Sequence record: OP292222.1
Strand: one strand, 5' to 3'
Length of the DNA: 64,000 nt
Origin: Escherichia phage Esco_phi_B-01
How positions within the stretch are numbered: the stretch's first letter is position 1; every line of letters starts with the position of its first letter. The position numbers and the translations under genes are program-made. This document shows, in pieces, positions 4,495 through 42,223 of this stretch. The notes beneath the pieces were generated by a model, which worked only from the letters and a program-made list of their open reading frames with translations, was not told the origin of the DNA and made no database searches.

Positions 4495-4499
4495 GGAAT

Positions 4500-4520
4500 G
4501 GGGCTTCGGCCCCTTATTGC
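4500..4520 (+). terminator. intrinsic terminator after nrdB
   Basis: GGGGC-TTCG-GCCCC hairpin followed by TTATTGCT. Confidence 0.6.
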
Positions 4521-4521
4521 T

Positions 4522-6080: not shown

Positions 6081-6108
6081 TTTACATCTCCTCATGATGT
6101 GTTAGTAT
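6080..6108 (+). promoter_or_regulatory. early-type promoter upstream of alc
   Basis: GTTTAC (6080-6085), 17-bp spacer, TAGTAT (6103-6108). Confidence 0.5.
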
Positions 6109-6138
6109 AGACTTACCAACTAATGAGGAGAAAACAAA

Positions 6139-6639: not shown

Positions 6640-6980
6640 GTATTTACCTTTTAGCTGGAGCCATTGCAGTAGGTGCTTACGGTTTTATTTCGTATCAATC
6701 GAGCCGTATTGATACATTAACCGAAGAACTGAAAACAACTCAGCAAACGGCTAAACAGAACGCCGAAGCTGTAGAGGACCTTCGTGGTCAATACTCGGAT
6801 ATTGAATTCCGTACTACTGAAATGAATGCCCGAATGGATAAAATTAAGGCAGAAAATGAAAAGCTCCGTAAAGATTCGAAGAAGGCGCACGTGGTGGCAA
6901 GTAAGCCAGGATTGGTCGAAAAACAAATCAACAAGTCCTTCGATTCCTTTGCCCAAGACTTCAGGAGCATCACAGAATGA
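6627..6980 (+). CDS. i-spanin (Rz-like; T4 pseT.3 equivalent)
   Basis: 117 aa; N-terminal TM helix followed by charged coiled-coil region; immediately upstream of a lipoprotein gene. Confidence 0.65.
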   Translation: MSKLSIYLLAGAIAVGAYGFISYQSSRIDTLTEELKTTQQTAKQNAEAVEDLRGQYSDIEFRTTEMNARMDKIKAENEKLRKDSKKAHVVASKPGLVEKQINKSFDSFAQDFRSITE

Positions 6981-7267
6981 TTAAATTGACTGCTGTAATG
7001 TTATCTATTGGCTTGTTAGTTGGGTGTGCCCAGGATGTTCCTGTAGCGCCTAAACAACAACTCCACCCTTCATGGCCGCAACCTATTGCCGAACATAATG
7101 TTAAATGGCAGGTTAAGGTAATCGACGGTAAGGCCTGGGTTGGTATGCCATTTGAAGACTCACAAGAACACCGAATTTGGTTGAACGACGTAAAAAGATA
7201 TGTACAAGACCAGAAATCTATGTTATGTTATTATCGTTCTGGACTAAAAGAGGAGAAGTGCAAATGA
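6977..7267 (+). CDS. o-spanin lipoprotein (Rz1-like; T4 pseT.2 equivalent)
   Basis: 96 aa; signal peptide with lipobox LLVGC; ATGA overlap with upstream i-spanin ORF. Confidence 0.65.
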   Translation: MIKLTAVMLSIGLLVGCAQDVPVAPKQQLHPSWPQPIAEHNVKWQVKVIDGKAWVGMPFEDSQEHRIWLNDVKRYVQDQKSMLCYYRSGLKEEKCK

Positions 7268-7371
7268 TTGAAGCCTGTATCGATGGATGGGATGTTTTTA
7301 AATTCGGTGCTGCATGTTTTTGCTTTGGTATCGTGTTCAGCCTGTGTATGAATGGTATTTTTGGAAAGTAG
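7264..7371 (+). CDS. small hydrophobic membrane peptide (35 aa), hypothetical
   Basis: ATG 7264 preceded by GAGGAG at 8 nt; overlaps upstream stop (ATGA); Cys/Phe-rich TM-like sequence. Confidence 0.4.
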   Translation: MIEACIDGWDVFKFGAACFCFGIVFSLCMNGIFGK

Positions 7372-7400
7372 TTTACAACCTCTTGGGAGCAGAGTATAAT
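7371..7400 (+). promoter_or_regulatory. early-type promoter
   Basis: GTTTAC (7371-7376), 18-bp spacer, TATAAT (7395-7400). Confidence 0.55.
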
Positions 7401-7434
7401 GCTCCCACGGATTATAAAATTTGAGGAAATTATT

Positions 7435-7913
7435 ATGACATTACGTGATAACAGTTTTGTGGCTAAGCCTGAATACATTTCAGGTATTAAATCTCCTATA
7501 TTACAAAAGCTCTTAAAATTAGGGTCCTGTGCAAGTACACCAATTGAAAAGAAGGCAACTTTCGATTTTGCTTGGGCTATTGTGGACGGTATTGATGTAG
7601 TAAGACAGGTAACTTTTTATGCTCCAGGGTCTATTGAGCCTTCACAGATTATTAATTTGGATGGAAGTAATTATATTACCATCCAACAGTGGTATCGTAT
7701 GATGCGTCCAGTTTGGGAATACCCTGAATTCATTGAAGAGTACAATGAAAAAGAACGTATTCGTGAGTTGGTAAAAAGTTTTGAATATGCGGCTAAGCGC
7801 CATGGTCAAATGCAAGCTGCTGCTACACTTGGCGATGTTTCTGAAAGCGCGGCTTATGAAACTGGTAAAATCCTTAAAACCTGCCGTGAAGAGCTTTATA
7901 AGGAGCTTGGTGT

Positions 7914-7917
<4 letters not shown>
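7435..7917 (+). CDS. hypothetical protein (160 aa)
   Basis: ATG 7435 with SD GAGGAA; early-type promoter upstream; no recognised domain. Confidence 0.55.
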
Positions 7918-9138
<1,221 letters not shown>

Positions 9139-9139
<1 letters not shown>

Positions 9140-9336
9140 TGAATAATATCGAAAAGATTTTTCGTACAATCGAAGAAATTGAAAAACGTAAATGCTTTTT
9201 CTTCGGCGTATGGCCTTTAACTGATGGACGTATTGGCCTGGATGTTATGGACTATAGAGATGAAGACAGGGTCGATGGTGGTATTTTTAAATCAGCGCCA
9301 GAACTCCTTGCCTTCTTGGAAAAACATTATGTATAA
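9139..9336 (+). CDS. hypothetical protein (65 aa)
   Basis: ATG 9139 overlaps pseT stop (TAATG); track start 9109 rejected. Confidence 0.5.
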
Positions 9337-9544
9337 CAAACACCATGAAGTTGAAGAAGAAGCTTATAAAGAGCTTCAGAAACTGGTAGGGCTTAATATG
9401 TCTCCTACCCTCATTAACTCACTAGCAGCTCTCCGTAACGATTTGAATGAACGTTACAAAGGTGAGTACTATGTTGAGTTCGTTCCTCTGACTGAAGTCG
9501 TTGACCGGTTTATTGTTAACGTGAAGGTCCATACAGTACACTGA
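9329..9544 (+). CDS. hypothetical protein (71 aa)
   Basis: ATG 9329 overlaps upstream stop; in-frame part of track ORF 9224..9544. Confidence 0.45.
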   Translation: MYNKHHEVEEEAYKELQKLVGLNMSPTLINSLAALRNDLNERYKGEYYVEFVPLTEVVDRFIVNVKVHTVH

Positions 9545-9551
9545 GGTAATT

Positions 9552-9830
9552 ATGTTCCCTACTTATTCTGAAATTGTTAAAGTAGTTTTTAGTCAGATTG
9601 TATCTGATTACCTATACGAACCTGTCGACACGTCGATTGAATTAAAAGTGCACGGACGTTTGTCTGCTATTCTGGAAATCATGTTCCCAGATGCAGTTGA
9701 TGCAATCACTGTCCAACTCACGACTGGTGCAGCATTTGCAATTGTTCCATTTAAAATTGATAACCACATTTTGGCTATTTCATGCAAAATGGACTTCCAG
9801 AAACAAACGGTAGTTGTCGAAGCAATTTAA
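9552..9830 (+). CDS. hypothetical protein (92 aa)
   Basis: ATG with SD GAGG upstream. Confidence 0.5.
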   Translation: MFPTYSEIVKVVFSQIVSDYLYEPVDTSIELKVHGRLSAILEIMFPDAVDAITVQLTTGAAFAIVPFKIDNHILAISCKMDFQKQTVVVEAI

Positions 9831-9832
9831 GT

Positions 9833-9862
9833 GTTTATATCATGGTAGGACTGTGGTATAGT
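9833..9862 (+). promoter_or_regulatory. early-type promoter
   Basis: GTTTAT (9833-9838), 18-bp spacer, TATAGT (9857-9862). Confidence 0.5.
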
Positions 9863-9892
9863 AGTCCTACCGAAACAAATGAGGAAATCGAA

Positions 9893-10447
9893 ATGGGTAA
9901 GTTCTTTGAAGAGCGTAAGTTTTATAAGTTCATTAGCGAATACACTAAAAACAAATTCACTAATAACGGCTCTTATGGCCTCAATACAGCTTTTGCCAAG
10001 TATGTAGGTATGAATCCGTTTGAAGTTGAAATTGATTACCATAATGGGCGTGAACGTGTAAGCCGAATTCGTGTATATGACGAGATGATGTTTGTCGACC
10101 CGAGCAAAATCACAGGTAATCCTGATGATGTAAATGCTGTTCTTTTTAATTCAACAGGCCTTTTTGGCCATGAATTCGAATACTTTATTGAAGTAGTACG
10201 TCCACTGGCCTCGGTGAGTATTTCTGAAAATGGTGGACCTAAACCGGTAAAAGCCACCGCTGATTGGAAAGTGCTTATCATTAAAAACGGTAAGATTGAA
10301 GTTCATTCTCGCCATAACACAAAGGAACAAGCCGACCGTCAAGCCGAAGAGCTTTTGACCAGTTCGTTCCAACAAGTGTGTTATATTGTTAAAGGCGACG
10401 TTACCCAAGCTACCACTACCAAACAACTTAAGTTGGAGACCATCTAA
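9893..10447 (+). CDS. hypothetical protein (184 aa)
   Basis: ATG 9893 with SD GAGGAA; early-type promoter at 9833-9862 lies inside the longer track ORF. Confidence 0.55.
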   Translation: MGKFFEERKFYKFISEYTKNKFTNNGSYGLNTAFAKYVGMNPFEVEIDYHNGRERVSRIRVYDEMMFVDPSKITGNPDDVNAVLFNSTGLFGHEFEYFIEVVRPLASVSISENGGPKPVKATADWKVLIIKNGKIEVHSRHNTKEQADRQAEELLTSSFQQVCYIVKGDVTQATTTKQLKLETI

Positions 10448-10680
10448 TGCTGAGCGAACAACCTATTACTGTAGAGCAGTTTCAAGTTAAAGTTAAAGAA
10501 TTTGCTCAGGCCCTGATTAATAAGGTTTCTGTACGTTTTCCTGATGCGACCCTGCGAGTAATCCAGGAATCACCACGTACGGTATTGGTTATCGTTAATC
10601 CTAAAAATGGCGGCCAGATTACCCAGTTAAAACTTGGTTCTGATGGTCTGGTCGAAGCGCAGCGAGTGTTCGTAGAATGA
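10447..10680 (+). CDS. hypothetical protein (77 aa)
   Basis: ORF with overlapping start/stop to neighbours. Confidence 0.5.
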   Translation: MLSEQPITVEQFQVKVKEFAQALINKVSVRFPDATLRVIQESPRTVLVIVNPKNGGQITQLKLGSDGLVEAQRVFVE

Positions 10681-30464: not shown

Positions 30465-30690
30465 AGAACTCTTCTTGCTCTTCGTCATCCATAGATTCTA
30501 ATTCAGCCCGTTTACCTGCTAAGGCATCACGAACACTGATATCATCCGAATCTCGAAGTTCAGCTTCTTTACTACGAGTTTTGTAATACTTCTCCAATTC
30601 CTTCAAACCGTCCATGGTCTGACAGGAACTAATTTTAGACATGAAGCTCTCGATAGAGGCTTCATAGATAACTTCTTTAAAGGACTTCAT
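30463..30690 (-). CDS. uvsW.1: UvsW.1 helicase accessory protein
   Basis: 75 aa ORF directly downstream of uvsW, as in T4. Confidence 0.7.
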   Translation of the reverse strand: MKSFKEVIYEASIESFMSKISSCQTMDGLKELEKYYKTRSKEAELRDSDDISVRDALAGKRAELESMDDEEQEEF

Positions 30691-32183
30691 AAATCCACCT
30701 GTTTCATTACGTAATTAAATTTCTCGTCAGCATAACGTTGAATACGTTCTAAGGCATGTTTTAATGCATAATTCAAATGAACATATTTCTTTTTGGCATT
30801 TGCTGATTTAGGCTTAACGCCCATGTCGTCTATAATGTCCCAAACTTGTGCTGTTGATTTAGAAGCATGTTTACGGAGTACACGACCGATTGTCTGGAGT
30901 ACAATGATTTTGGATTTTACCGGATGAGCAAATACAACATGGTGAAGGTTCTTAACGGAAATACCAGTAGAGAACACACCATAACTTGCCACAACAATAA
31001 TACCCTTACCATTTTCCGCCATTACTTTCAGAGCATTACGCGTTTCGGTATTAACTTCACCTGATACGTAATAAACTTCTTTATGTTGCTCTTTAACCAT
31101 TTCAAAAAGAGTTTTACCGTGTTCGATGTTTTTAAACATCAGGAATACGTTCTCTTCTTTCTTAGCGAGTTTAACAGCTAAATTAGCAACCCATTTATTA
31201 CGACGAGTAGCCTTAGTAATGACCTTTATTTCTGATTGGTAATCTTTACCTTTCATCTTAACAGTGAATTCATCCGGATAACGAAGGAAAATACTGTTTA
31301 TTTTTAAATCAGTGACCTGTCCTTCTTCCATTAACTGTGAAGTGGATACCGGCTTAAACACATCACCAAACAAACCCATATATTGCATTAAATTGGCTTT
31401 ACCGTCTTTTAAAGAACCAGACAAACCGAATTTAAACATACAATTGGTTAGGCCTTCGATGATGGTAGAAATTGATTTACCTGTTGCCAAATGGCATTCG
31501 TCGTTCATAAACATACCAAACTGAGCAAACCATTCTTTAGGTTGTTTAATAGCCGTTTGATAAGTTGAAACATAAATCATTGCATCGGAATCACGAGCAG
31601 TACCTGAACGAATACCAAGCATAGCAGCTTTAGGGAACAAACGATAATCAATGAAGTCATTAATCATCTGGTCGACAAGTGCAGTAGTAGGAACTAAGAT
31701 AAGAATTTTACCTTCATAGTTCTCAACGTAATATCGACTCAGGAGCGCCTGAATCAATGATTTACCTGCAGATGTAGGTAAATTCAGAATTGCACGACGT
31801 TTTGTCAGACCGTTGTATACGGCTTCATTCTGATACCAATGTGGCTCAATCTTGGTAGAACCTGAATAAATCTCTTGTGAAGCTACCCATGAGTCAAAAT
31901 CTTCGCGAGAAATATCTTCTTGTTCAAGAATTCGTGGGTCTATCCAAAGAGAGTATTCAAACTGGTCAGCGAATTTTTTAATTTGTGGGACTAGACCATA
32001 CGGAAGTTTACGGTTATAATCTAGAAGACGAATTCTCCCATCCCATTGCCCGTAACGGTATTTAGGGTTAAATTTATATCCATCAGCTTCAAAGCTGAAA
32101 TAGTCTCTGAGTTCGTAGAAGGTGGATTCATCACACTCAACACGAACATGACTAAAATTATCAAAATGTACTTGAATTTGCAT
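30687..32183 (-). CDS. uvsW: UvsW SF2 DNA helicase
   Basis: 498 aa; Walker A NLPTSAGKS and helicase motifs; size as T4 UvsW. Confidence 0.88.
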   Translation of the reverse strand: MQIQVHFDNFSHVRVECDESTFYELRDYFSFEADGYKFNPKYRYGQWDGRIRLLDYNRKLPYGLVPQIKKFADQFEYSLWIDPRILEQEDISREDFDSWVASQEIYSGSTKIEPHWYQNEAVYNGLTKRRAILNLPTSAGKSLIQALLSRYYVENYEGKILILVPTTALVDQMINDFIDYRLFPKAAMLGIRSGTARDSDAMIYVSTYQTAIKQPKEWFAQFGMFMNDECHLATGKSISTIIEGLTNCMFKFGLSGSLKDGKANLMQYMGLFGDVFKPVSTSQLMEEGQVTDLKINSIFLRYPDEFTVKMKGKDYQSEIKVITKATRRNKWVANLAVKLAKKEENVFLMFKNIEHGKTLFEMVKEQHKEVYYVSGEVNTETRNALKVMAENGKGIIVVASYGVFSTGISVKNLHHVVFAHPVKSKIIVLQTIGRVLRKHASKSTAQVWDIIDDMGVKPKSANAKKKYVHLNYALKHALERIQRYADEKFNYVMKQVDL

Positions 32184-32197
32184 GTCTAATTCTCAGT

Positions 32198-32219
32198 TAT
32201 AAATATAATTATATTTATA
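32198..32219. promoter_or_regulatory. divergent late promoters for inh-hoc (+) and uvsW (-)
   Basis: TATAAATA on plus at 32198-32205 and on minus at 32212-32219 in the 55-bp intergenic region. Confidence 0.6.
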
Positions 32220-32238: not shown

Positions 32239-32910
32239 ATGGATACTCAATATATTGAAGAGCTTCGTGCACTCGAAGATAAAAAAGAAGCTAAAGCTAA
32301 GTTAATCGAATACGGCGAACAATTCGGTTTAAAACTTAAGAAAACCCGTTCGTTTGATAATTTGATTATCGATATCTCTGAAGGCCTTAAAGCCTTGGCT
32401 GATGAACCACTTCCAGAAACCGAAGGTTTGTCTATTTCCGATTTGATTGATGCTGCTGACGAACTCACAGGTGCTAATGAATTTGTTGATGGCGCGGAAC
32501 CTGCCAAAGAAGAGGCTACCCTATTATTTGATGCCCCTGAAGCGGTAGTTGAAGTTATTGAGGTAGCCGAACTTCCTAAGGTAGAGATTATTGAAGAAGA
32601 CGTCCCGTTTGTCGAAGAGAAATTCAAAGAGGCTGTAACCAAGGTTATTGAATCGGAAAAACCTGTATTCTCTTTGCCTGAAAACTTTAGCCCTAATCTT
32701 TTACTCATTGGTAAAAACCCAGGGTATTGTACTGTGCCTTGGTGGATTTATCAATGGATTACCGAAACCCCTGATTGGAAAGAGCGTCCTAAAGATTTCC
32801 AACACCCATCTGCCCACCAAACACTATTCAGTCTGATTTATTACATTAATCGTAATGGTTCAGTATTAGTACGTGAAACGCGTAATTCATCTTTCGTAAC
32901 TTTAAAATAA
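32239..32910 (+). CDS. inh: Inh-like protein (inhibitor of prohead protease), by position
   Basis: 223 aa acidic protein directly upstream of hoc, as T4 inh; sequence not confidently recalled. Confidence 0.5.
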   Translation: MDTQYIEELRALEDKKEAKAKLIEYGEQFGLKLKKTRSFDNLIIDISEGLKALADEPLPETEGLSISDLIDAADELTGANEFVDGAEPAKEEATLLFDAPEAVVEVIEVAELPKVEIIEEDVPFVEEKFKEAVTKVIESEKPVFSLPENFSPNLLLIGKNPGYCTVPWWIYQWITETPDWKERPKDFQHPSAHQTLFSLIYYINRNGSVLVRETRNSSFVTLK

Positions 32911-32919
32911 GGGTAAAAT

Positions 32920-34329
32920 ATGGCTTTTACTGTAAGTATAGCCGGCGCTGCGTCTATTAAAATAGGCGAAAGCGCCAACTACACTGCTACCGCAACAGGT
33001 GCAGCTGTAGAAGGAACCGTTACATATGTATGGACCATTGACGGTGCTTCTAATCCGGAGGCAACCAATGTTTTGAAATATACCGGTGTGGCTCCAGCTG
33101 GTAAGAAAGTTTTAAAAGTAGTAGCAACTTCTACTCCAGCCGAAGGCGAACCTGAGGTAGCTGAAAAAACTTTTGAAGTTACCGTAGCTAATAAGACCAT
33201 TGGGGCTCTTTCTTTGACCTTAGACCCTACTTCTGTTTCTAAAGAAATTGGTCAATCCCAAGTTGTTACTGCTAACGTATCGGGTGTCCCTGCTGGCGCT
33301 ACAATTACTTATGTTTGGAAACGTAATACAACTGTAATTTCAGGTCAAACTGGTAAAACTATTACCATAACCGAAGCAGCGGCAGCGAATTACACTTTGA
33401 ACTGTGAAGTTACTGTTACCGCCCCTGAATATGACCCGGCTACAGCTACTAAAGGTATTGCGGTAACTTTTGTTAAGAAAACTATATCAGGCGCTTCCGT
33501 TACTTTAACACCGGCCTCAATTAGTACAGAGAAAGGCTCATCTGCACAGTTTAAAGCGGATGTAGTTGGCGCTCCTTCCGGCGTAAATGCAACTTATTCT
33601 TGGAAGAAAAATGGTTCTATTATTCCGGGCGAAAGCAGTAATACCCTTGCTGTCGATACATCTACAGTAGGTTCTTACACTATTGAAGTTTCGGTAGTCC
33701 TAAAAGGTGCGGATTATAATGATTTAACCGTTACCAAAACCGGAAGTGTAACAATTACTAAAAAGACCATGACAGGTGTTTCTGTTACTTTAGCGCCGGC
33801 CTCTATTAATACTCCGGAAGGAACTCCAGCTTCTTTTAAAGCTACCGTAGCTGGCGCCCCTGCTGGTGCTACTTTTGCATATTCTTGGAAGAAAGATGGT
33901 TCGCCAGTCGCCGGTACCACAGATACTTTAGTAGTCGATACAAGTGCTGAAGGTTCACAGGTTATTGAAGTTTCTGTTGTGGTTTCGGCTACCGACTATA
34001 ATCCTGTGACTGTCAAAAAATCTGGTAATGTAACAATTACGCCTAAAGTCGCTCCTGAACCTGAAGGCGAACTACCTTACGTCCACCCGCTGCCGGTTCG
34101 TAATTCAGCGTATATTTGGGCCGGTTGGTGGGTTATGGATGAAATCCAGAAAATGACACTTGAAGGTAAAGATTGGAAAACTGATGACCCTGATAGCAAT
34201 TATTATCTCCATCGCTATACTCTTCAAAAAATGGTTGCCGATTATCCAGAGGTTGATGTACAAGAATCACGAAATGGAAGAATTATCCATCGTTCGGCTC
34301 TTGACACAGGTATAATTTATTTTTACTAA
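32920..34329 (+). CDS. hoc: Hoc, highly immunogenic outer capsid protein
   Basis: 469 aa; four Ig-like repeats plus C-terminal capsid-binding domain (PEPEGELPYVHPLP...WWVMDEIQKMT.EGKDWKTDDPDS.YYLHRYTLQKM) matching T4 Hoc. Confidence 0.88.
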   Translation: MAFTVSIAGAASIKIGESANYTATATGAAVEGTVTYVWTIDGASNPEATNVLKYTGVAPAGKKVLKVVATSTPAEGEPEVAEKTFEVTVANKTIGALSLTLDPTSVSKEIGQSQVVTANVSGVPAGATITYVWKRNTTVISGQTGKTITITEAAAANYTLNCEVTVTAPEYDPATATKGIAVTFVKKTISGASVTLTPASISTEKGSSAQFKADVVGAPSGVNATYSWKKNGSIIPGESSNTLAVDTSTVGSYTIEVSVVLKGADYNDLTVTKTGSVTITKKTMTGVSVTLAPASINTPEGTPASFKATVAGAPAGATFAYSWKKDGSPVAGTTDTLVVDTSAEGSQVIEVSVVVSATDYNPVTVKKSGNVTITPKVAPEPEGELPYVHPLPVRNSAYIWAGWWVMDEIQKMTLEGKDWKTDDPDSNYYLHRYTLQKMVADYPEVDVQESRNGRIIHRSALDTGIIYFY

Positions 34330-34341
34330 TTTTGGCTAAAT

Positions 34342-34375
34342 AAAAACGGGAGAGCGAAAGCTCTCCCGTTTTGTT
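34342..34375. terminator. bidirectional terminator between convergent hoc genes
   Basis: AAAAA-CGGGAGAGC-GAAA-GCTCTCCCG-TTTTGTT. Confidence 0.85.
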
Positions 34376-35234
34376 ATATGACATTTAATGTCAGGTGCTT
34401 CCTATTCAAAATATACCCATTTCTTGATTCCTGTATTTCTACATCAGGATATCGTGACAAAAGTTCTGCCACTTTTGCGAGCTCACACTTATACCTAAAA
34501 TTGCTATCTTCTATATTGATAGCCCAATCCTGGTTTTTATCAAGGGCACCTTTTATCTCATCCAACACCCACCAGCCTATCCACATGTGGGCCCTATTTC
34601 GGCCACCTGGATAAGACAAATACTGATTTAAATCATGTGAGTATATAAATGGACACACTTCAGGTTCAGGTAAATCACCATCCATAGGCATAATATCTAC
34701 CGTAACTATATCATGATACGGATTATAAGCACCTTCGGCTGTGGCAGAGACATTAAGAGAATATGTCCCATACATAGAAGGCTTTATATCAACATCTAAA
34801 TCCTTTACATTTGAAACCATTTTATCATATTTCCACCATTCACACTCTACTTCGGCCCAGGGTGTGGTACCCATAGAAATTAAAGGTTGTAAAGAAACTT
34901 TTTGACCTATTTCAGCCTTTATGATAGCATCTAAATTTTCTATGGAAATAACTATATCTCTAGGCTCTATCCCGATTTCCAAAACAAAATCTTCGCTTTG
35001 AAAAGTCTCTTGTGTTAGCTTATCAGTGGCTATCGCATAATAAGTCCCTGCTGCAGGAAACCCTACATCCCAAAGATTTAGATACATCGGGTCTTCTTTA
35101 TCTAATAATGGAACGTTTACACCGTTTTTGTACCATTTTATATCGACATCGGTTAAAGATTCAGATAAAACAGCCCTAAGAGTTACCGTTCTCCCAACCA
35201 ATTCATAATGAGGTCCATTTACTTGTATAGACAT
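34374..35234 (-). CDS. Hoc-like paralog
   Basis: 286 aa; C-terminal domain shares the Hoc capsid-binding signature (WIGWWVLDEI, YPDVEIQESRNGYI); SD GGAGG. Confidence 0.75.
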   Translation of the reverse strand: MSIQVNGPHYELVGRTVTLRAVLSESLTDVDIKWYKNGVNVPLLDKEDPMYLNLWDVGFPAAGTYYAIATDKLTQETFQSEDFVLEIGIEPRDIVISIENLDAIIKAEIGQKVSLQPLISMGTTPWAEVECEWWKYDKMVSNVKDLDVDIKPSMYGTYSLNVSATAEGAYNPYHDIVTVDIMPMDGDLPEPEVCPFIYSHDLNQYLSYPGGRNRAHMWIGWWVLDEIKGALDKNQDWAINIEDSNFRYKCELAKVAELLSRYPDVEIQESRNGYILNRKHLTLNVI

Positions 35235-35245
35235 GCTACCTCCAA

Positions 35246-36253
35246 TTAATAAGGGAAACTAACCATTTTAACCAATATAGGTTTATTAGAATCTACACTG
35301 CGCCCGTGTTGAAATACCGTTATTTCTGAAATTGTTTTAGAACCCCATTCCTTTAAGGTTATATTAATAGGACGTAGCCCGTTATATGCCGCACTTACTA
35401 TAACAAATGAGCCTGTAGGAGACAAAGTCTTAGTTCCGCCACCGGTAGTAACCGTTCCACCCGAAACACTAGGAGCAACAAAGTGATAATCACAATATCG
35501 GGTAGTCCCACCTTTACTTAAAATGCTGTATTCTATTTGGTTGTTAACCAATCTAACTCTAAGAACCGTATTGGCGACCCCAGGTATTTTTATTTCGCCG
35601 TACCCAGCAGCAACGTTGGTATACTTATGGAATGAAAACAAATCTGTACCATCTTTACCAGGTTCGCCTTGAGGACCCTGAGGACCTAGAGGGCCAGTAG
35701 CTCCGTCAAGTCCATCAATCCCATCCACCCCAGGAGGACCTTGAACACCTTGCGGACCCTGCTCACCATCTTTACCCGGGATACCCTGTTCGCCTTGTGC
35801 ACCCTGAGAAGCCAATAAGGCCCAGTAAAGGCTGTTTTCTTCAGCAGGATTATTACCGGTAGAATCCTGAACGCAAAAATAAGAAGCCCCATTGTACCCT
35901 ACTGCATCATCCTTAACATAGGCTGTTGCAGCACTCCATGTTCCTTTCCAATTTAGACCCACAGGGCCTACAGGACCAGCCGGGCCTCTCGGTCCTACAA
36001 TGCTTTCACCTTTAGGGCCAGGGATACCAGGGGATAACATTTCTTCGGATATCCCCAAATGAGCCAGAACTTCAGCTCTTCCGGATTTACTAACCAAGCC
36101 TAAGCCATACGAATTACTCCCTACCAATCTTGCCGGGTTTATAAGACTTTCTTTAGTAAGAATTTTTTCAAAAGGGATAACAGTATCCGATTCCTTTAAA
36201 GCAATACCGGAAAAGGTCCCTCGACCGTCATGACCAAAAATAGAATCTGCCAT
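35246..36253 (-). CDS. collagen-like repeat protein with CBM5/12-like motif
   Basis: 335 aa; uninterrupted 17-triplet Gly-X-Y run and a shorter run; between them WKGTWSAATAYVKDDAVGYNGASYFC..YWALL resembles a chitin/carbohydrate-binding module. Confidence 0.75.
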   Translation of the reverse strand: MADSIFGHDGRGTFSGIALKESDTVIPFEKILTKESLINPARLVGSNSYGLGLVSKSGRAEVLAHLGISEEMLSPGIPGPKGESIVGPRGPAGPVGPVGLNWKGTWSAATAYVKDDAVGYNGASYFCVQDSTGNNPAEENSLYWALLASQGAQGEQGIPGKDGEQGPQGVQGPPGVDGIDGLDGATGPLGPQGPQGEPGKDGTDLFSFHKYTNVAAGYGEIKIPGVANTVLRVRLVNNQIEYSILSKGGTTRYCDYHFVAPSVSGGTVTTGGGTKTLSPTGSFVIVSAAYNGLRPINITLKEWGSKTISEITVFQHGRSVDSNKPILVKMVSFPY

Positions 36254-36264
36254 TTAATACTCCT

Positions 36265-36294
36265 GTTTACAAGTTAAAAATCCTATGTTAAGAT
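36265..36294 (+). promoter_or_regulatory. possible early-type promoter
   Basis: GTTTAC (36265-36270), 18-bp spacer, TAAGAT; weaker -10. Confidence 0.35.
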
Positions 36295-36325
36295 GGCTTT
36301 ACCAAACTCAACAAGAGAATTTGTT

Positions 36326-36535
36326 ATGGATAAGGTTAAAGTACATTTTTTACATGAATCTGGACTTAATTTTATAGAAATTGCTAAAAAATTAGGTGGT
36401 ACTGCTAAAGACATGGCTAAAGCATGGGTTGATGTGGAACAGGCCAAGGCCAAATTTAAGTCAAAAGAGAAAGTAGTATATCGCAAACGTCTAATCAATA
36501 AGGTTCGGCGCAAAGCGCGTTCTAGTTCAAAGTAA
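36326..36535 (+). CDS. small basic protein with HTH-like segment (69 aa)
   Basis: ATG 36326 (track start 36293 lies in the promoter -10); early-type promoter upstream; Lys/Arg-rich tail. Confidence 0.45.
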   Translation: MDKVKVHFLHESGLNFIEIAKKLGGTAKDMAKAWVDVEQAKAKFKSKEKVVYRKRLINKVRRKARSSSK

Positions 36536-36563
36536 TATGCTTTAAATTTAGGTGTGTTATAAT
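36536..36563 (+). promoter_or_regulatory. T4 middle-type promoter upstream of rnlB
   Basis: MotA box taTGCTTTA (36536-36544) 13 bp upstream of extended -10 TGTTATAAT (hexamer 36558-36563). Confidence 0.55.
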
Positions 36564-36649
36564 GGGTCTAGGTCCTTCCGTTAAACCATTTGGCTTGGTG
36601 ACAGAAGATTACTAGCTCTTCTATTTAATTATATTTATTATGGTGATTT

Positions 36650-37657
36650 ATGTTCAAGAAATATAGCAGTCTGGAAAACCACTACAACAGTAAGTTTATC
36701 GAAAAACTCCGTACCAATGGTTTGACTGGTGGCGAATGGGTAGCACGTGAGAAGATTCATGGAACCAACTTTAGTTTAATCATAGAACGTGACGCAGTCA
36801 CATGCGCCAAGCGCACGGGTCCAATTCTCCCTGCTGAAGATTTCTATGGTTATGAAATTGTACTTAAGAACTATGCTGATTCTATTAAATCCGTACAAGA
36901 TATTATGGAAACTTCGGCAGCCGTATCTTATCAAGTTTTCGGTGAATTCGCTGGAACAGGCATTCAGAAGAACGTTGATTACGGTGATAAAGATTTTTAT
37001 GTATTTGACATTATTGTTACAACCGAAAGTGGCGATGTGACTTATGTCGACGATTATATGATGGAATCATTTTGTAAGACGTTCAAATTTAAAACGGCGC
37101 CACTTTTAGGTCGTGGTAAATTTGAAGACCTTATTAAATTGCCAAATGATTTGGATTCCGTCCTTCCTGATTATAATTTTACAGTAGATAATGTCGGGCT
37201 AGCCGAAGCTAATGCTCATGTGTGGAATGCTGAAGCAAAAGGCGAAGTATTTACCGCTGAAGGGTACGTATTAAAACCTTGTTATCCACTTTGGCTCCCT
37301 AATGGAAATCGTGTAGCGATTAAATGTAAGAACTCTAAATTCAGCGAGAAGAAAAAGTCTGATAAGCCTATTAAAGTTGCAGTAGTATTATCTCAAGACG
37401 ATTTAGATTTATTACAACAATTCACTGATTATGTGACTGTTAACCGTATTAACAACGTTATCAGTAAGATTGGTGAAGTATCACCTAAAGATTTCGGAAA
37501 GGTAATGGGACTGACGGTCCAAGATATTTTGGAAGAGGCAGCCCGTGAAGAATTAGAATTAACCGATGCAGAAAACCCTGTTGAAGTTAAAAAGCAGCTC
37601 GTTGAGTGTGTAAAAGATACGCTACGGGCCGTGTGGATTGAATTAGTATCCAAATAA
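36650..37657 (+). CDS. rnlB: RNA ligase 2
   Basis: 335 aa; N-terminus near-identical to T4 Rnl2 including motif I KIHGTN. Confidence 0.92.
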
Positions 37658-37662
37658 ACAGT

Positions 37663-37690
37663 AAAGGGACCTTACGGTCCCTTTTATTTT
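37663..37690. terminator. bidirectional terminator between rnlB and the gene 24 operon
   Basis: GGGACC-TTAC-GGTCCC hairpin flanked by AAA and TTTTATTTTT. Confidence 0.8.
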
Positions 37691-38964
37691 TCTAGTGGTG
37701 GAAGTTTAACACCAAGATAAGAACTCAACTGGCTTTGGTTAGCCATTTTGTCCATATCAGAGCCATCAATAATGCGGGCTTCTTTATCGTCCTTAGCGAC
37801 GGTATAAGGGTTTGCAGTCAATGCATAACGAGCAAGCAATGCTACTGTAGGTTGTAAGCTTTCCGGGTCAACAATAACCTTAAATTCACCTACTGAAGTA
37901 TCACCTTCTTCATCAACCACATCCAAACCTTCCGTATAAGGCGCATAATATAAAGATGCGACCGTCTGTCCTTCACCCATCTGGGCATTTACACCAACAA
38001 TAACATAATCACATGGACTATTCATATCAGCATAAAGAGGCAGACCATTCTTTAATACACCATAGGCCAATTCGTCTTGGTCTTCCTTTTTCTCAACCCA
38101 ACCGGAAGCGGCGAGAATAGCAGCACAACGAGAACTAGCTACTGCATAAGTCCCAGCGAAAGAAGTTTGACGTTGGACGGCAGAGTTCATCTCACACATG
38201 TAATAATATAATGTACGAGCACGGTCCTGGGCGTTATCGTAACGTGGGTTGGTAAGGTCTAATACACCTTTTTCAGAAACACCTTGGACTTTAAAACGAG
38301 AACTCACCGTAATTAATGACTGTAATACATCCTTATTAATTTCTTCTGCCATTTGGATGCCTAGCAGATTTTCAACGAAATTAGGAGCATTAAACCCGTT
38401 TGATTCTAGGTCCTGGGCTAATTCGACTGTCAATGAAGTTTTCAGTTTACGTGATTTAACTTCAGATTGCCATTTATCAATACGGAAGCCTGCTTCAGCA
38501 ATTTCAGGATGGCCTTGTTCGAATTTAGAAGTAATAGCAGCATCCGATACCATACGAATATGTCCGGCTGCCACTGCTTCAGAAATAACTTCACCGAGGT
38601 CGGTTTCTGTGGTTCCAGCGAAAGGAGATGCTTCTAGAACTTTAAACACCACACTTTCAAACTGGAACATATCGCCGGCTGCATAAGCTGTAGACGAATC
38701 GGCAAATTCAGGAATATTTTCACGTTCCGACATACCAATCTGGCCCGCAAATGTAGCACCACCAAGATAAGTCATTTTGTCGTCAGGGTTAAGTACACGA
38801 ACCCCGTACAGAGCAGCAACAGGTTGGCTTGTTTTTTGTTCAGCAACTAGGGCTTTAAAGATTCGTTTATTAGTTGCTTGGGTGTATGAAAGAAGAGCAG
38901 GACGGCCAACCGAGTTGGCAGCCGTCAATGTGGATTCTTTAATTAGGTCTATAATCTTAGACAT
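37684..38964 (-). CDS. gp24-like capsid vertex protein paralog
   Basis: 426 aa; roughly half identical by eye to the adjacent gp24 (shared blocks RKLKT.LTVELAQD.ESNGF, INKDVLQSLITVS, ANPYTVAKDDKEAR); overlaps gp24 stop. Confidence 0.8.
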   Translation of the reverse strand: MSKIIDLIKESTLTAANSVGRPALLSYTQATNKRIFKALVAEQKTSQPVAALYGVRVLNPDDKMTYLGGATFAGQIGMSERENIPEFADSSTAYAAGDMFQFESVVFKVLEASPFAGTTETDLGEVISEAVAAGHIRMVSDAAITSKFEQGHPEIAEAGFRIDKWQSEVKSRKLKTSLTVELAQDLESNGFNAPNFVENLLGIQMAEEINKDVLQSLITVSSRFKVQGVSEKGVLDLTNPRYDNAQDRARTLYYYMCEMNSAVQRQTSFAGTYAVASSRCAAILAASGWVEKKEDQDELAYGVLKNGLPLYADMNSPCDYVIVGVNAQMGEGQTVASLYYAPYTEGLDVVDEEGDTSVGEFKVIVDPESLQPTVALLARYALTANPYTVAKDDKEARIIDGSDMDKMANQSQLSSYLGVKLPPLEK

Positions 38965-40247
38965 TAATCAGCCTCGTAAATAATTGCTGGAAGTTTAACA
39001 CCAAGCAGATAAGACATATTACTCTGTCCGGCCATTAAATCCATATTGGTGGCATCGATAACACGAGCTTCTTTATCGTCTTTAGCTACGGTGTACGGGT
39101 TAGCGGACAGTGCATAACGAACCATCAGAGAAATAGAAGGCTGTAATGAATCCGGGTCGACAATAACCTTATAAGCACCAACGTGTTCTGGGTCGTCTAA
39201 ATCCAGGCCTTCTGTATACGGGGCATAGAAAATAGAACCGACAACTTCATTACCGCCATAGTTCTCTTTAACACCTACGATAACATAATCCAATGGGCTG
39301 TTAACGTCACAGAACAATGGTAATCCATTCAACAAATAACCATAGGCAGTTTCTGGGAGCCAATTATTATCTTCAGGTCTATGTTTTAACCAGCCAGAAC
39401 CTGCAAGCATTGCAGCCACACGACTTGAAGCCACAACAAACGTACCGGAATAAGAAGTAGTTTTCTGGATTTCAGAATTCATCTCACAAACAATTTCATA
39501 AAGTTTACGTGCAGATTCTGGAGCACTATCATAAGTCAAATCGATGATGCCATTATCAGATACACCCGTAACTTTATAGCGTTTAGATACGGTTATCAGA
39601 GATTGCAGAACGTCTTTATTAATTTCATCTGCCATTACTGTAGCCAGGAGGTCTTCTAAGAATGCAGGGGCGTCGAAGCCATTTGATTCCATATCCTGGG
39701 CCAATTCTACAGTCAAAGCAGTCTTCAATTTACGGGTCTTAACAGGAGCATTCCATTTATTAACCTGGAATACAGCATCAGAGATTTCTACATTACTCGC
39801 TTCGAATTTAGTGGTATGGGCTGCATCAGGAACCAGACGACATGTTAATGACACCAAACCTTCTTGAAGGGCATCAGCCAATCCTGTAGCGCTAGTGGAT
39901 GCGAGTGGGCTTGCTTGAAGAGCCTTATAAACCACATTCTGATACTTAAAGTAGTCACCCTTGGCAATCGCCTGGGCTTTATCTGTGAGTTCTGGGATAG
40001 TTTCACGGTCTTTAGAACCAACTTCACCACCATAAACAGCACCAGTTTGGAAACTGAATTCATTATCAGGGGTAAGATATTTGACACCGTACAATGCAGC
40101 AATAGGCTGACTAGTACGTTGTTCAGCGATGATATCGCGATAAATTAGTTTAGTGGTAGCACGGGTCAAAGCAACAAGATTAGGGCGACCCAATGAGTTG
40201 CTGGTAGTAGTTGTTGACTCGCGCAGTAATTCGTTAATCTTTGCCAT
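38964..40247 (-). CDS. 24: gp24 capsid vertex protein
   Basis: 427 aa; N-terminus matches T4 gp24 (MAKINELLRESTTT.SNS.GRPNLVALTRATTKLIY). Confidence 0.9.
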   Translation of the reverse strand: MAKINELLRESTTTTSNSLGRPNLVALTRATTKLIYRDIIAEQRTSQPIAALYGVKYLTPDNEFSFQTGAVYGGEVGSKDRETIPELTDKAQAIAKGDYFKYQNVVYKALQASPLASTSATGLADALQEGLVSLTCRLVPDAAHTTKFEASNVEISDAVFQVNKWNAPVKTRKLKTALTVELAQDMESNGFDAPAFLEDLLATVMADEINKDVLQSLITVSKRYKVTGVSDNGIIDLTYDSAPESARKLYEIVCEMNSEIQKTTSYSGTFVVASSRVAAMLAGSGWLKHRPEDNNWLPETAYGYLLNGLPLFCDVNSPLDYVIVGVKENYGGNEVVGSIFYAPYTEGLDLDDPEHVGAYKVIVDPDSLQPSISLMVRYALSANPYTVAKDDKEARVIDATNMDLMAGQSNMSYLLGVKLPAIIYEAD

Positions 40248-40663: not shown

Positions 40664-42223
40664 TTAGATACCTTTAACATAAACGCGACGGAAGTAACCA
40701 TTCAGACCGAGGCTGTTAACGATGTCAGGCATACCGCTCTGAATACGTTTGGTAGGAGCCTGTGCAGACGGGTCAGCGAACGGGTTAATACCGATACCGT
40801 AACGAGTTTTGAAGCCCATTACCGGCTGGAAGTTCTTCGGATCGGAACCGCGCAGTGGGGTAAGTGCAACGTAAGGAGCGTAGTAGATACCTGCGTCCAT
40901 TTCGTTGGAACCTTTATAACCGATGGTGAAGTAATCAGCACGGGCATACTGGTCGATGTAAACGCGATATTTACCACCAAGAACACCGGCAAATACTGCT
41001 TTAGTGGTGTCAACGTTGAAACCTTGACCCAGACCTTGAGCTGCATAACTTACAGAAGTATCAACTGCAGCCAGTACGTTAACTACGTTACGGGAAGCGA
41101 TGATGAAGTTACCAGCACCACGACCGGTCTGACGAGCGATTTCGGCTGCTTCTTTATCAATCTGGAACAGAAGGGCTTTAAAGCTCTCACCGGCCCAACG
41201 AGCACCACGGATATCAATCGGGTCCTGGAAGTCAAACACACCAGCTTTAGCGCCAACGGTGTTGGTCATACCAGATTTACCAACCTGTGCAGAGTAGTTA
41301 ATCCAATCGATAACTTCACGGTTGATTTCGAGCATAATTTCGGTAGCAAGGATACCGGACAGTTCAGCATCTGCATCCATACCGTGTACTGCACGAAGGT
41401 CCTGTGCCAGTTCGATGGAATAGCTTGCTTTCAGCTGACGGGATTTAGCTTCGATAACTTGTTTATCGATACGGAAGCCCATTTCGTTCCACGGGTTATC
41501 CTGAGAACCGTTAAAGCCTTCCTGAAGTTCAGCGATAGAAGTAGCCATACCTTCAGCCAATTCAGCCAGCTGACCAGCTTCCAACAGAGCAGTTACGGCA
41601 ACATCCAGTTTAGCGGCATCAGTAGCAGCAGCATCAACGGTTACGGCTTCAACAGCCTGGAAGTGTGCAGCACCGGTAGCTTCGAAGAAGTGAGAATAAA
41701 TTTTACCAACTTCCAGAACTTTACCTGCAGCCAGTGCTTCAAAAGTCTGAGCAGCGCCCTGACCAGAGAACATAGCGTTCGGAGCATACATCGGGTGGAA
41801 AGCTTCTTTAGCGCCAGCAGCGATAGGGTCTTTACCGTATACTGCACGCAGTGCAAATACCTGGCCGGTAGGGTTATTCAGAGGCTGAACACCACAAATA
41901 TCAAAAGCAATCAGATGAGGAATAGCACGACGAACCATACCCATTACTGCCGGCCCAATCTGAGTTACAGCACCAGAGGTCTGGCCAGCTGCGATATTGG
42001 TAGCATCATAACCGTGGTCACCACCGATTTCAGCTTCGGTCAGGAAAGAACCAAATGCTTCAGAGATTTTTTCGTCACGATATTCAGGAGCGGTCAGAAT
42101 ATCTTGTTCCTGGTTTTCGAAAATTTTAGCGATGATAGCTTGTTTAGAAGCACCAACGATTTCAGGAAGAGCTTCGTTTTCCAGCAGAGCGGACCATTTT
42201 TGAACTAATGCATTCTTTTTCAT
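40664..42223 (-). CDS. 23: gp23 major capsid protein
   Basis: 519 aa; size, position and N-terminal region consistent with T4 gp23. Confidence 0.92.
   Translation of the reverse strand: MKKNALVQKWSALLENEALPEIVGASKQAIIAKIFENQEQDILTAPEYRDEKISEAFGSFLTEAEIGGDHGYDATNIAAGQTSGAVTQIGPAVMGMVRRAIPHLIAFDICGVQPLNNPTGQVFALRAVYGKDPIAAGAKEAFHPMYAPNAMFSGQGAAQTFEALAAGKVLEVGKIYSHFFEATGAAHFQAVEAVTVDAAATDAAKLDVAVTALLEAGQLAELAEGMATSIAELQEGFNGSQDNPWNEMGFRIDKQVIEAKSRQLKASYSIELAQDLRAVHGMDADAELSGILATEIMLEINREVIDWINYSAQVGKSGMTNTVGAKAGVFDFQDPIDIRGARWAGESFKALLFQIDKEAAEIARQTGRGAGNFIIASRNVVNVLAAVDTSVSYAAQGLGQGFNVDTTKAVFAGVLGGKYRVYIDQYARADYFTIGYKGSNEMDAGIYYAPYVALTPLRGSDPKNFQPVMGFKTRYGIGINPFADPSAQAPTKRIQSGMPDIVNSLGLNGYFRRVYVKGI

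What the first reader, a model, noticed from the sequence alone, without database searches (positions are those of the whole stretch)
32920..35234. Two convergent hoc genes sharing one capsid-binding domain but different Ig-repeat arrays
The plus-strand hoc (469 aa, four Ig-like repeats) and a minus-strand paralog (286 aa, about two Ig-like modules) both end in the Hoc capsid-binding signature (WWV.DEI..., YP.V..QESRNG.I). They face each other across a single bidirectional terminator. T4 has one hoc. Two decoration proteins that probably compete for the same capsid site suggest mixed or switchable surface display.
Basis: partly seen in the sequence, partly recalled or inferred. Interest (0 to 1): 0.6.

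Follow-up and report, generated by a model that had tools for sequence, protein, structure and literature searches.

The report
Second Hoc gene in fibre cassette
This T4-like coliphage carries two head-decoration (Hoc) genes, which was already annotated in its close relative JS10; the short second copy always travels with a collagen-like fibre gene, so it may tether a fibre to the phage head.

Summary
hoc1 (32920-34329 +, 469 aa) has four Ig modules plus the Hoc C-domain. hoc2 (34374-35234 -, 286 aa) has two Ig modules plus the same C-domain. They converge on a strong bidirectional hairpin terminator.

It is not new. The window is 96.6% identical to phage JS10, whose GenBank record calls both genes "hoc". 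Phage 65 has an annotated "hoc-2". Fokine et al. 2023 describe phages with two Hoc-like proteins.

Both proteins keep 14 of 16 T4 Hoc capsid-contact residues. The gp23 docking loop matches T4 at 18 of 19 positions. Sharing one site per hexamer is therefore plausible. I found no evidence for "switchable" display.

- hoc2 is not a local duplicate. It belongs to an old lineage found across genera.
- It is the second gene of a two-gene cassette. The gene immediately upstream encodes a collagen-like fibre with a family-specific N-terminal domain.
- The pair is exchanged as a unit. No intact fibre gene occurs without a hoc2-type gene in the same genome.

hoc2 is under purifying selection (dN/dS 0.10). 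My inference, at about 0.4, is that Hoc2 anchors the fibre to the capsid. Expression and packaging remain untested.

The parts
32198..32205 (+). Perfect T4-type late promoter box TATAAATA upstream of inh-hoc1
   Evidence: It lies 34 nt upstream of the inh ATG. Function is inferred from the consensus only.
32239..32910 (+). inh (prohead protease inhibitor). Its last ~60 aa resemble the Hoc capsid-binding domain
   Evidence: PHROG 1051 E=5.8e-91 and a weak PHROG 1149 hit. The Hoc C-domain HMM hits Inh of all phages examined, including T4 (E 2e-8 to 2e-4). Alignment.
32920..34329 (+). hoc1, the canonical Hoc. Ig modules: aa 1-91 (32920-33192), 92-185 (33193-33474), 186-280 (33475-33759), 281-375 (33760-34044). 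Capsid-binding C-domain: aa 376-469 (34045-34326)
   Evidence: The C-domain scores E=9.5e-57 against T4 Hoc. 14 of 16 contact residues are kept.
34343..34372 (.). Bidirectional intrinsic terminator hairpin shared by the convergent genes
   Evidence: -23.6 kcal/mol, z=-5.6.
34374..35234 (-). hoc2, the short Hoc paralogue. Ig D1: aa 1-90 (35234-34965). Ig D2: aa 95-183 (34952-34686). C-domain: aa 198-286 (34643-34377), with a ~9-aa insertion in the beta1-beta2 loop
   Evidence: dN/dS against JS10 is 0.10. A GGAGG Shine-Dalgarno box lies 6 nt before the ATG.
35246..36253 (-). Collagen-like fibre gene, the cassette partner of hoc2. Family-specific N-domain: aa 1-75 (36253-36029). Collagen 1: aa 76-99. 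CBM5/12-like knob: aa 100-148. Collagen 2: aa 149-203. Swappable C-terminal tip: aa 204-335 (35644-35249)
   Evidence: Pfam Collagen E=1.2e-10 and CBM_5_12 E=7.3e-5. PHROG 5073. N-domain alignment and HMM. Tip shared with tail fibres of unrelated coliphages. The gap to hoc2 is 11 nt.
36626..36639 (-). Only late-promoter-like element upstream of the cassette (AATAAATA and TATAATTA, one mismatch each). It lies 386 nt upstream of the fibre ATG and is antisense to 24.3
   Evidence: It is conserved in JS10 and dhabil, but that may only reflect the 5' region of the plus-strand gene. Function is unproven.
41198..41254 (-). gp23 loop corresponding to the T4 Hoc docking region G326-R344 (GAKAGVFDFQDPIDIRGAR)
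   Evidence: It matches T4 at 18 of 19 positions, and D336 and R344 are kept.

Best explanation
The window comes from a JS10-like Dhakavirus (a T4-like coliphage).

hoc1 is the canonical Hoc of the inh-hoc late operon. It has four Ig modules and a capsid-binding C-domain.

Convergent with it lies an accessory, horizontally exchanged two-gene cassette. The first gene encodes a collagen-like, presumably trimeric fibre. The fibre has a family-specific N-terminal domain and a swappable C-terminal tip. An 11-nt gap then leads to hoc2, a short Hoc with two Ig modules and the capsid-binding domain.

Shown here:
- Homology of both proteins to Hoc.
- Retention of the T4 capsid-contact residues and of the gp23 docking loop.
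- Purifying selection on hoc2.
- Cassette linkage and co-transfer across genera.

Inferred:
(a) Hoc2 is assembled on the head at hexamer centres, sharing the ~155 sites with Hoc1 and giving a mosaic surface (about 0.7).
(b) Hoc2 works together with the fibre, most likely as the capsid anchor onto which the fibre's conserved N-domain docks. The swappable tip would then be held beyond the Hoc1 canopy as an adhesin (about 0.4).

By analogy with T4 Hoc (180 A for four domains), Hoc2 alone would reach about 135 A and Hoc1 about 225 A. A bare Hoc2 would therefore be shadowed by Hoc1. The 79 collagen residues would add about 230 A.
For: Identity and prior annotation.

Hoc membership.

Same docking determinants:
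- hoc1 and hoc2 each keep 14 of 16 contact residues, including Y293, R300, W306, W309, W310, D313 and the Q-ESRNG loop.
- The gp23 loop is conserved.

Functional gene:
- dN/dS is 0.10 (46.7 synonymous and 20.3 non-synonymous differences against JS10).
- The ORF is intact across genera.

Old lineage: fibre-linked hoc2 C-domains cluster apart from the canonical Tevenvirinae Hoc next to inh.

Cassette linkage:
- Every full-length hoc2-type gene examined, except in IME08, is preceded on the same strand by a fibre gene carrying the GHDGRGNF...LGIT.EML N-domain.
- That covers 12 further GenBank phages besides the window. The gap ranges from -58 to +11 nt and often overlaps.
- The same holds in the metagenomic contigs that include the upstream gene, L019-L022 and L024. 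L022 carries two tandem pairs.
- The cassette sits in different genomic contexts: next to hoc1; directly after gene 24 in the head operon of Cronus and FBB1; and elsewhere in phage 65 and Phynn.
- Among 50,697 phage records the N-domain appears only in about 20 T4-like phages.
- No intact fibre gene occurs without a hoc2-type gene in the same genome. hoc2 does occur with only a decayed or displaced fibre gene (IME08, PspYZU05).

Co-transfer:
- Four Dhakaviruses share 96-100% identical Inh, yet carry three cassette alleles (fibre N-domain 34-49% identical, Hoc2 Ig region 33-48%).
- Each allele's nearest relatives, where found, are in another genus or a metagenomic contig: dhabil with CGG4-1 and L019, and ABTNLsp5 with TH15.

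Late promoter: a TATAAATA box lies upstream of the fibre gene in TH15, ABTNLsp5, Phynn, L019, L022 and L024.

Precedents:
- SPP1 gp12 is a collagen-like trimer at hexamer centres (PMC7602432).
- Phage 7-7-1 capsid fibres are seated on an Ig-type link protein (PMC12796354).
Against: - I found no expression, virion proteomics or imaging data for any cassette-bearing phage.
- The window, JS10 and dhabil lack a perfect late promoter upstream of the cassette. The nearest candidate is AATAAATA at -386.
- A hairpin after gene 24 probably limits read-through into the cassette.
- No fusion protein joins the fibre N-domain to a Hoc domain among the roughly 17 true family representatives in 1.84 billion clusters.
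- Stoichiometry is awkward: Hoc is a monomer and the fibre is presumably a trimer.
- The Hoc2 D1 module is more conserved than D2 (37% against 28%), but the conserved residues are mostly generic Ig framework positions.
- Linkage could reflect co-transfer alone.
- Other phages carry two Hocs without this fibre: MN01 and Muldoon, whose second Hoc is reported in PMC10385173 and in which the fibre searches found no Serratia-phage match.
- hoc2 has a 9-aa insertion next to R300 and a Y304H change, either of which could alter docking.
Confidence: 0.5

Rival explanations
1. There are two independent decorations. Hoc1 and Hoc2 simply share hexamer-centre sites. The collagen-like protein is an accessory tail, baseplate or neck fibre with no physical link to Hoc2. 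The two genes stay together only because they are co-selected adhesins or move together through a hyperplastic region.
For: - PHROG and GenBank call the partner gene a 'tail fiber'.
- Its C-terminal tip is shared with tail-fibre proteins of unrelated coliphages.
- Two-Hoc phages exist without the fibre.
- No fusion proteins were found.
Against: - The pair persists with tight or overlapping junctions down to about 30-40% identity and in at least four genomic contexts.
- The fibre N-domain is never found intact without a hoc2-type gene in the same genome.
- In Cronus and FBB1 the pair directly follows gene 24 in the head operon.
Confidence: 0.35
2. Hoc2 is not a virion decoration. It acts as an assembly factor or chaperone for the fibre encoded upstream, as gp38 and Tfa do for tail fibres, or it binds some target other than gp23.
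For: Genes immediately downstream of fibre genes are often chaperones (general knowledge). The beta1-beta2 loop carries an insertion and Y304 is changed to H.
Against: - The near-complete capsid-contact set and the ESRNG loop are conserved throughout the hoc2 clade.
- hoc2 has no similarity to any chaperone family, only to Hoc.
- hoc2 persists where the fibre gene has decayed (IME08, PspYZU05).
Confidence: 0.07
3. One reading: the phage alternates between Hoc1-coated and Hoc2-coated heads by a regulated or invertible switch.
For: The genes are convergent, and a 28-nt inverted promoter-like repeat brackets the block.
Against: - The repeat is only 79% matched, AT-rich and promoter-like.
- No invertase or recombinase lies in the locus.
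- In the relatives fetched here, hoc2 is convergent with the neighbouring canonical or other Hoc gene wherever the two are adjacent.
Confidence: 0.05
4. hoc2 is a decaying duplicate or a non-functional remnant.
For: The window has no canonical late promoter directly upstream of the cassette.
Against: - dN/dS is 0.10 with dS 0.32.
- The ORF is intact and has a strong Shine-Dalgarno box.
- It is conserved across genera.
Confidence: 0.02

Closest known systems
Escherichia phage JS10 (EU863409) genes EpJS10_0178, _0177 and _0176
   Same: The gene order and orientation are identical. Nucleotide identity is 96.6% over 4.4 kb. Protein identities are Hoc1 98.3%, Hoc2 94.4% and fibre 99.7%. Both hoc genes are already annotated as 'hoc head outer capsid protein', and the partner as 'tail fiber-like protein'.
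   Different: The hoc2 segment is much more diverged (dS 0.32) than its flanks (0.02-0.10). JS10 has an extra 369-nt ORF between 24.3 and rnlB.
T4 Hoc (PDB 5vf3, 8t1x) and RB49 Hoc (3shs)
   Same: [quoted passage not shown]
   Different: T4 has one Hoc with three Ig modules. Here there are four Ig modules in Hoc1 and two in Hoc2. Hoc2 also carries a loop insertion and a two-residue 'NF/RF' insertion typical of its clade.
Aeromonas phage 65 hoc-2 (65p146) with collagen-like 65p147, and Salmonella phage CGG4-1 'Hoc I' with CGG41_166
   Same: These are the same cassette: a collagen-like fibre carrying the same N-domain, followed by a short hoc2-type gene.
   Different: The genera and genomic positions differ. 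Their fibres carry the family's common C-terminal domain, whereas the window and JS10 carry a different tip.
Two Hoc-like proteins of Serratia phage Muldoon and Enterobacter phage PG7 (Fokine et al. 2023, PMC10385173)
   Same: This is the published precedent for a second, shorter Hoc (two Ig modules plus the C-domain) and for reuse of the C-domain to display other modules.
   Different: No member of this fibre family was found in Serratia phages. The paper does not mention a linked collagen-like fibre.
SPP1 gp12 (a collagen-like trimer at hexamer centres), phi29 gp8.5 head fibre, and phage 7-7-1 capsid fibres on an Ig-type link protein
   Same: These are the functional analogues for the inferred capsid-anchored fibre.
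   Different: There is no sequence relationship. The only PDB match of the fibre N-domain profile is phi29 gp8.5 at E=1, which is chance level. Attachment of the fibre here is unproven.

Membership tests
Hoc (T4-type outer capsid decoration protein) | C-terminal capsid-binding domain homologous to T4 Hoc 281-376 | tested here: met
   hoc2 against T4 Hoc: E=3.6e-16. hoc1 C-domain against T4 Hoc: E=9.5e-57. PHROG 1149 hits.
Hoc (T4-type outer capsid decoration protein) | Conserved capsid-contact residues and the E-S-R-N-G loop | tested here: met
   14 of 16 positions are kept in each protein. hoc2 differs at H299G and Y304H. hoc1 differs at H299V and Y360R (residue list from PMC10385173).
Hoc (T4-type outer capsid decoration protein) | N-terminal string of Ig-like domains | tested here: met
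   hoc1: four repeats with a 285-nt period and Pfam Ig hits. hoc2: two beta-sandwiches in the AF2 model, with RB49 Hoc as the top fold match.
Hoc (T4-type outer capsid decoration protein) | Cognate docking site on the major capsid protein (gp23 G326-R344) | tested here: met
   18 of 19 residues are identical, and D336 and R344 are kept.
Hoc (T4-type outer capsid decoration protein) | Late expression and presence on the virion at hexamer centres | not testable with these tools
   TATAAATA lies upstream of inh-hoc1. No perfect box lies upstream of the cassette in the window, although one does in six related cassettes. No proteomic data were found.
Fibre-hoc2 cassette (defined here from phage 65, CGG4-1, Cronus, dhabil and others) | A collagen-like gene with the GHDGRGNF...LGIT.EML N-domain immediately upstream of a short hoc2-clade gene on the same strand | tested here: met
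   The window's N-domain scores E=4.4e-30 against the HMM. The gap is 11 nt. The C-domain falls in the hoc2 clade.
Collagen-like or fibrous capsid decorations (SPP1 gp12, phi29 gp8.5) | Sequence homology to gp12 or gp8.5 | tested here: not met
   The only match is gp8.5 at E=1. Apart from the weak CBM_5_12 hit, the Pfam and NCBIfam hits are to generic collagen repeats.
Collagen-like or fibrous capsid decorations (SPP1 gp12, phi29 gp8.5) | Trimeric fibre physically attached to the capsid | not testable with these tools
   The single-sequence AF2 model of the fibre was unusable (pLDDT 34). No multimer tool was available.
Invertible or switchable fibre systems (Mu Gin, P1 Cin type) | A site-specific recombinase plus inverted crossover sites | tested here: not met
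   There is no recombinase ORF in the locus. The only flanking inverted repeat is a weak promoter-like match.

The most novel reading that the evidence does not exclude
Hoc2 is the capsid-docking adaptor of a two-component head fibre. The conserved N-domain of the collagen-like protein binds Hoc2, and Hoc2 binds the gp23* hexamer centre. T4-like phages of several genera would then exchange a plug-in 'head-fibre cassette' whose distal tip is swapped like a tail-fibre tip. A subset of hexamers would carry long adhesive fibres among ordinary Hoc.
Probability: 0.35. Interest if true: 0.65.

Novelty: already known. Interest (0 to 1): 0.32.

Why it matters
The finding as reported is a catalogued feature of JS10-type phages, so it matters little by itself.

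It could matter for three reasons:

- Hoc is thought to mediate mucus and surface adherence, and it is the main display platform on T4 heads. Dhakaviruses such as JS10 have been considered for phage therapy (my own knowledge, not checked here). A second Hoc sharing the same sites would change surface chemistry, antigenicity and the capacity for display.

- The fibre-hoc2 cassette appears undescribed in the literature I could search. If it builds a capsid-anchored collagen fibre, it would be a new way for T4-like phages to add a swappable adhesin to the head.

- It would also explain why short Hoc paralogues persist in these genomes.

Tried and rejected
Searches that gave little or nothing:
- The word-indexed protein search with the fibre N-domain found nothing. 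With the N-domain alignment it found only two fragments.
- The IMG/VR scan returned only three loci that match the record lengths of phages already in hand (CGG4-1, PspYZU05, Cronus).
- The exhaustive HMMER search found about 17 true relatives, none fused to a Hoc domain. The long multi-hit proteins were spurious TPR-like repeat matches to 'GRAEVL..LG'.
- PDB sequence searches with the fibre N-domain and with its tip gave nothing significant.
- NCBIfam found only generic collagen adhesins.
- Literature searches for two hoc genes in JS10 or Dhakavirus, for a link between Hoc and collagen fibres, and for Inh-Hoc similarity found no direct treatment.

Analyses that failed or were uninformative:
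- Single-sequence AF2 of the fibre failed (pLDDT 34). No fold search was attempted on that model.
- Tandem Repeats Finder did not see the diverged Ig repeats. The repeat finder did.

Ideas rejected:
- Recent local duplication of hoc1: rejected by the tree and by the Ig identities.
- Pseudogene: rejected by dN/dS.
- Invertible switch: rejected.
- A specific link to the duplicated gp24: rejected because MN01, which lacks the cassette, also has two gp24 genes.

Not attempted: a linker-fused fibre-Hoc2 chimera was not submitted for structure prediction, because the tool reports no inter-domain error measure and accepts only native sequences.
Full report
**What is there.**
The locus reads as follows:
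- uvsW (30687-32183, -)
- inh (32239-32910, +)
- hoc1 (32920-34329, +, 469 aa)
- hoc2 (34374-35234, -, 286 aa)
- a 335-aa collagen-like ORF (35246-36253, -)
- 24.3/DUF2774 (36293-36535, +)
- rnlB (36650-37657, +)

Two gp24 paralogues and gp23 follow on the minus strand. The 4.4-kb block is 96.6% identical to Escherichia phage JS10, genus Dhakavirus, family Straboviridae.

**Check of the observation.**
- hoc1 and hoc2 align over their last ~190 residues (E=7e-19).
- Both hit the Hoc PHROG.
- hoc2 aligns to the solved T4 Hoc chain at E=3.6e-16.
- hoc1 has four Ig modules. A 55-nt repeat recurs at exactly 285-nt spacing, the modules are 26-60% identical, and Pfam reports Ig hits.
- The AF2 model of hoc2 (mean pLDDT 84.7) shows two beta-sandwiches and a C-domain with a strand-strand-helix-helix-strand order. 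Its best PDB fold match is RB49 Hoc.
- The 44-nt intergenic region holds a 13-bp hairpin with a GAAA loop, flanked by an A-run and a T-run. It folds at -23.6 kcal/mol (z=-5.6) and scores as a terminator on both strands.

**Already known.**
- The JS10 GenBank record names both genes 'hoc head outer capsid protein' and the neighbour 'tail fiber-like protein'.
- IME08, dhabil and dhaeg are annotated with two Hoc genes.
- Aeromonas phage 65 carries 'hoc-2, second copy of the hoc gene'.
- CGG4-1 has 'Hoc I' and 'Hoc II'.
- Fokine et al. 2023 (PMC10385173) describe second, shorter Hoc proteins in Muldoon and PG7. They discuss reuse of the C-domain to functionalise the capsid.

**Do both proteins fit the same site?**
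The T4 structure paper lists the residues of the Hoc C-domain that touch gp23* and the gp23 loop they bind, G326-R344.
- In my alignment, hoc1 and hoc2 each keep 14 of 16 of these residues. The kept set includes Y293, R300, W306, W309, W310, D313 and Q354-G359.
- The window's gp23 loop is GAKAGVFDFQDPIDIRGAR, against GSKAGVFDFQDPIDIRGAR in T4.
- Only one Hoc binds per hexamer in T4, so shared or competing occupancy is a sound inference.
- hoc2 carries a ~9-residue insertion beside R300, modelled at low confidence. This could alter affinity.

**hoc2 is not a local duplicate.**
- Its Ig modules are 12-30% identical to those of hoc1.
- In a neighbour-joining tree of C-domains, hoc2 groups with short Hocs of Gelderlandvirus, Gaprivervirus, Roskildevirus, Aeromonas, Pantoea and Pseudomonas phages. 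It sits apart from the canonical Hoc next to inh in T4 and the Dhakaviruses.
- Against JS10, hoc2 has dN/dS 0.10. It is therefore a constrained, functional gene.
- Its dS of 0.32 far exceeds that of its flanks (fibre 0.017, hoc1 0.084, inh 0.103). This points to a separate recombinational history.

**The cassette.**
A tblastn search with the neighbouring collagen-like protein showed that its N-terminal ~160 residues recur next to hoc2-type genes in distant phages. I then fetched loci from GenBank phages and from metagenomic contigs.
- With the exceptions noted below, each hoc2-type gene is preceded on the same strand by a gene with the motif M..(L)FGHDGRGNF.G...LGIT.EML, followed by G-X-Y repeats. 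The gap ranges from -58 to +11 nt and is often a 4-nt overlap.
- Contig L022 carries two tandem fibre-hoc2 pairs plus a Hoc of about 930-940 aa.
- The pair sits beside hoc1 in Dhaka-, Gelderland- and Gaprivervirus and in some Aeromonas phages.
- It directly follows gene 24 in the head operon of Cronus and FBB1.
- It lies elsewhere in phage 65 and Phynn.

The N-domain is rare.
- It occurs in about 20 phages among 50,697 records, all Straboviridae.
- It has about 17 true representatives among 1.84 billion protein clusters.

The exceptions run one way.
- IME08 keeps hoc2 while its fibre gene is split and displaced.
- PspYZU05 keeps a 132-aa Hoc beside a 49-aa fibre remnant.
- AP1 has only a 78-aa fibre remnant.
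- No intact fibre gene was found without a hoc2-type gene in the same genome.

**Co-transfer.**
- The window, JS10, dhabil and ABTNLsp5 share 96-100% identical Inh. Their cassettes fall into three alleles: fibre N-domain 34-49% identical, Hoc2 Ig region 33-48%.
- The dhabil cassette is closest to that of Gelderlandvirus CGG4-1 and contig L019 (fibre N-domain 70-74%, Hoc2 Ig region 59-70%).
- The ABTNLsp5 cassette is closest to that of Gaprivervirus TH15 (fibre N-domain 88%, Hoc2 Ig region 84%).
- Other Dhakaviruses and related coliphages (EcWhh-1, UP19, MX01, WG01) lack the cassette.
- The cassette is therefore an accessory unit that is exchanged as a whole.
- The window and JS10 fibre has a different C-terminal tip from the rest of the family. 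That tip is shared with tail-fibre proteins of unrelated coliphages (37-56% identity), as expected for a distal ligand-binding end.

**Mechanism.**
- Shown: Hoc membership, retained docking determinants, selective constraint, and cassette linkage.
- Inferred at about 0.7: Hoc2 occupies a share of the hexamer centres beside Hoc1.
- Inferred at about 0.4: Hoc2 is the anchor for the fibre.
- By analogy with T4 Hoc (180 A for four domains), Hoc2 would stand about 135 A tall under a Hoc1 canopy of about 225 A. The 79 collagen residues would add about 230 A, which would put the tip outside the canopy.
- Precedents are SPP1 gp12, a collagen-like trimer at hexamer centres, and the capsid fibres of phage 7-7-1, which sit on an Ig-type link protein.

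**Weak points.**
- I found no expression or proteomic evidence.
- A perfect TATAAATA box precedes inh-hoc1 and six related cassettes. It is missing before the cassette in the window, JS10 and dhabil. There, only AATAAATA at -386 is a candidate.
- A hairpin follows gene 24.
- No domain fusion was found.
- The fibre could not be modelled.
- A monomeric anchor for a trimeric fibre is awkward.

**Verdict.**
The finding is real but already catalogued. The 'competition for one site' idea is reasonable, and 'switchable' is unsupported. The added value of this check is the conserved, mobile fibre-hoc2 cassette. It suggests a testable head-fibre hypothesis.

Noticed in passing
window 32701-32892 (+), Inh residues ~155-218: The C-terminal ~60 residues of Inh (PWWIYQWI...DWK...RETRNS) are homologous to the Hoc capsid-binding domain. 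The Hoc C-domain HMM hits Inh of every phage examined, including T4 (E 2e-8 to 2e-4). The locus therefore encodes three proteins with this domain. I found no paper discussing this.
   Followed up: partly
window 34374-35234 compared with its flanks: Against JS10, hoc2 has dS 0.32, while the fibre has 0.017 and hoc1 and inh have 0.08-0.10. Differences are concentrated at 34439-35238. This looks like a recombination tract confined to hoc2.
   Followed up: partly
window 35249-35644 (-), fibre residues 204-335: The C-terminal tip of the fibre differs from the tip used by the rest of the family. It is 37-56% identical to tail-fibre proteins of unrelated coliphages (VR25, VR26, A7_1, A5-4, e4/1c, AugustePiccard, RobRod40), which suggests tip swapping.
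   Followed up: partly
window 32187-32214 and 36623-36650: A 28-nt inverted repeat (79% matched) links the inh late-promoter region to a minus-strand AATAAATATAATTA element. The two promoter-like sequences face inward and bracket the whole inh-hoc1 / hoc2-fibre-24.3 block. The minus-strand element is conserved in JS10 and dhabil.
   Followed up: partly
window 37684-38964 and 38964-40247 (-): Two tandem gp24 (head vertex) paralogues of 426 and 427 aa. The same duplication is seen in JS10, dhabil, CGG4-1, Cronus and MN01. It is not specific to cassette-bearing phages.
   Followed up: no
window 37663-37684: A 9-bp GC-rich hairpin lies between the convergent rnlB and gene 24. It is terminator-like on the plus strand but has a weaker T-tract on the minus strand. 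It may limit late read-through towards the cassette.
   Followed up: no
L001 (JS10) 6950-7318 compared with window 36536-36649: JS10 has an extra 369-nt ORF between 24.3 and rnlB that the window lacks.
   Followed up: no
L022 (metagenomic contig SRR10097265_5069) 1892-9725; L006 (CGG4-1) 4369-10590: Some relatives carry more Hoc-domain genes. L022 has two tandem fibre-hoc2 pairs plus a Hoc of about 930-940 aa. CGG4-1 has three Hoc-domain proteins of 285, 944 and 279 aa.
   Followed up: partly
L003 (IME08) 6768-8164 (-): The IME08 'tail fiber-like protein' is annotated from a non-ATG codon. A separate 68-aa ORF just upstream carries the fibre N-domain. The gene is therefore split, by frameshift or sequencing error, and lies on the far side of rnlB from hoc2.
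   Followed up: partly
window 33475-34044 (+), hoc1 modules D3 and D4: D3 and D4 are 60% identical, whereas other module pairs are 26-36%. IME08 and TH15 hoc1 have only three Ig modules (377 and 375 aa). This indicates recent gain or loss of an Ig module within the genus.
   Followed up: partly
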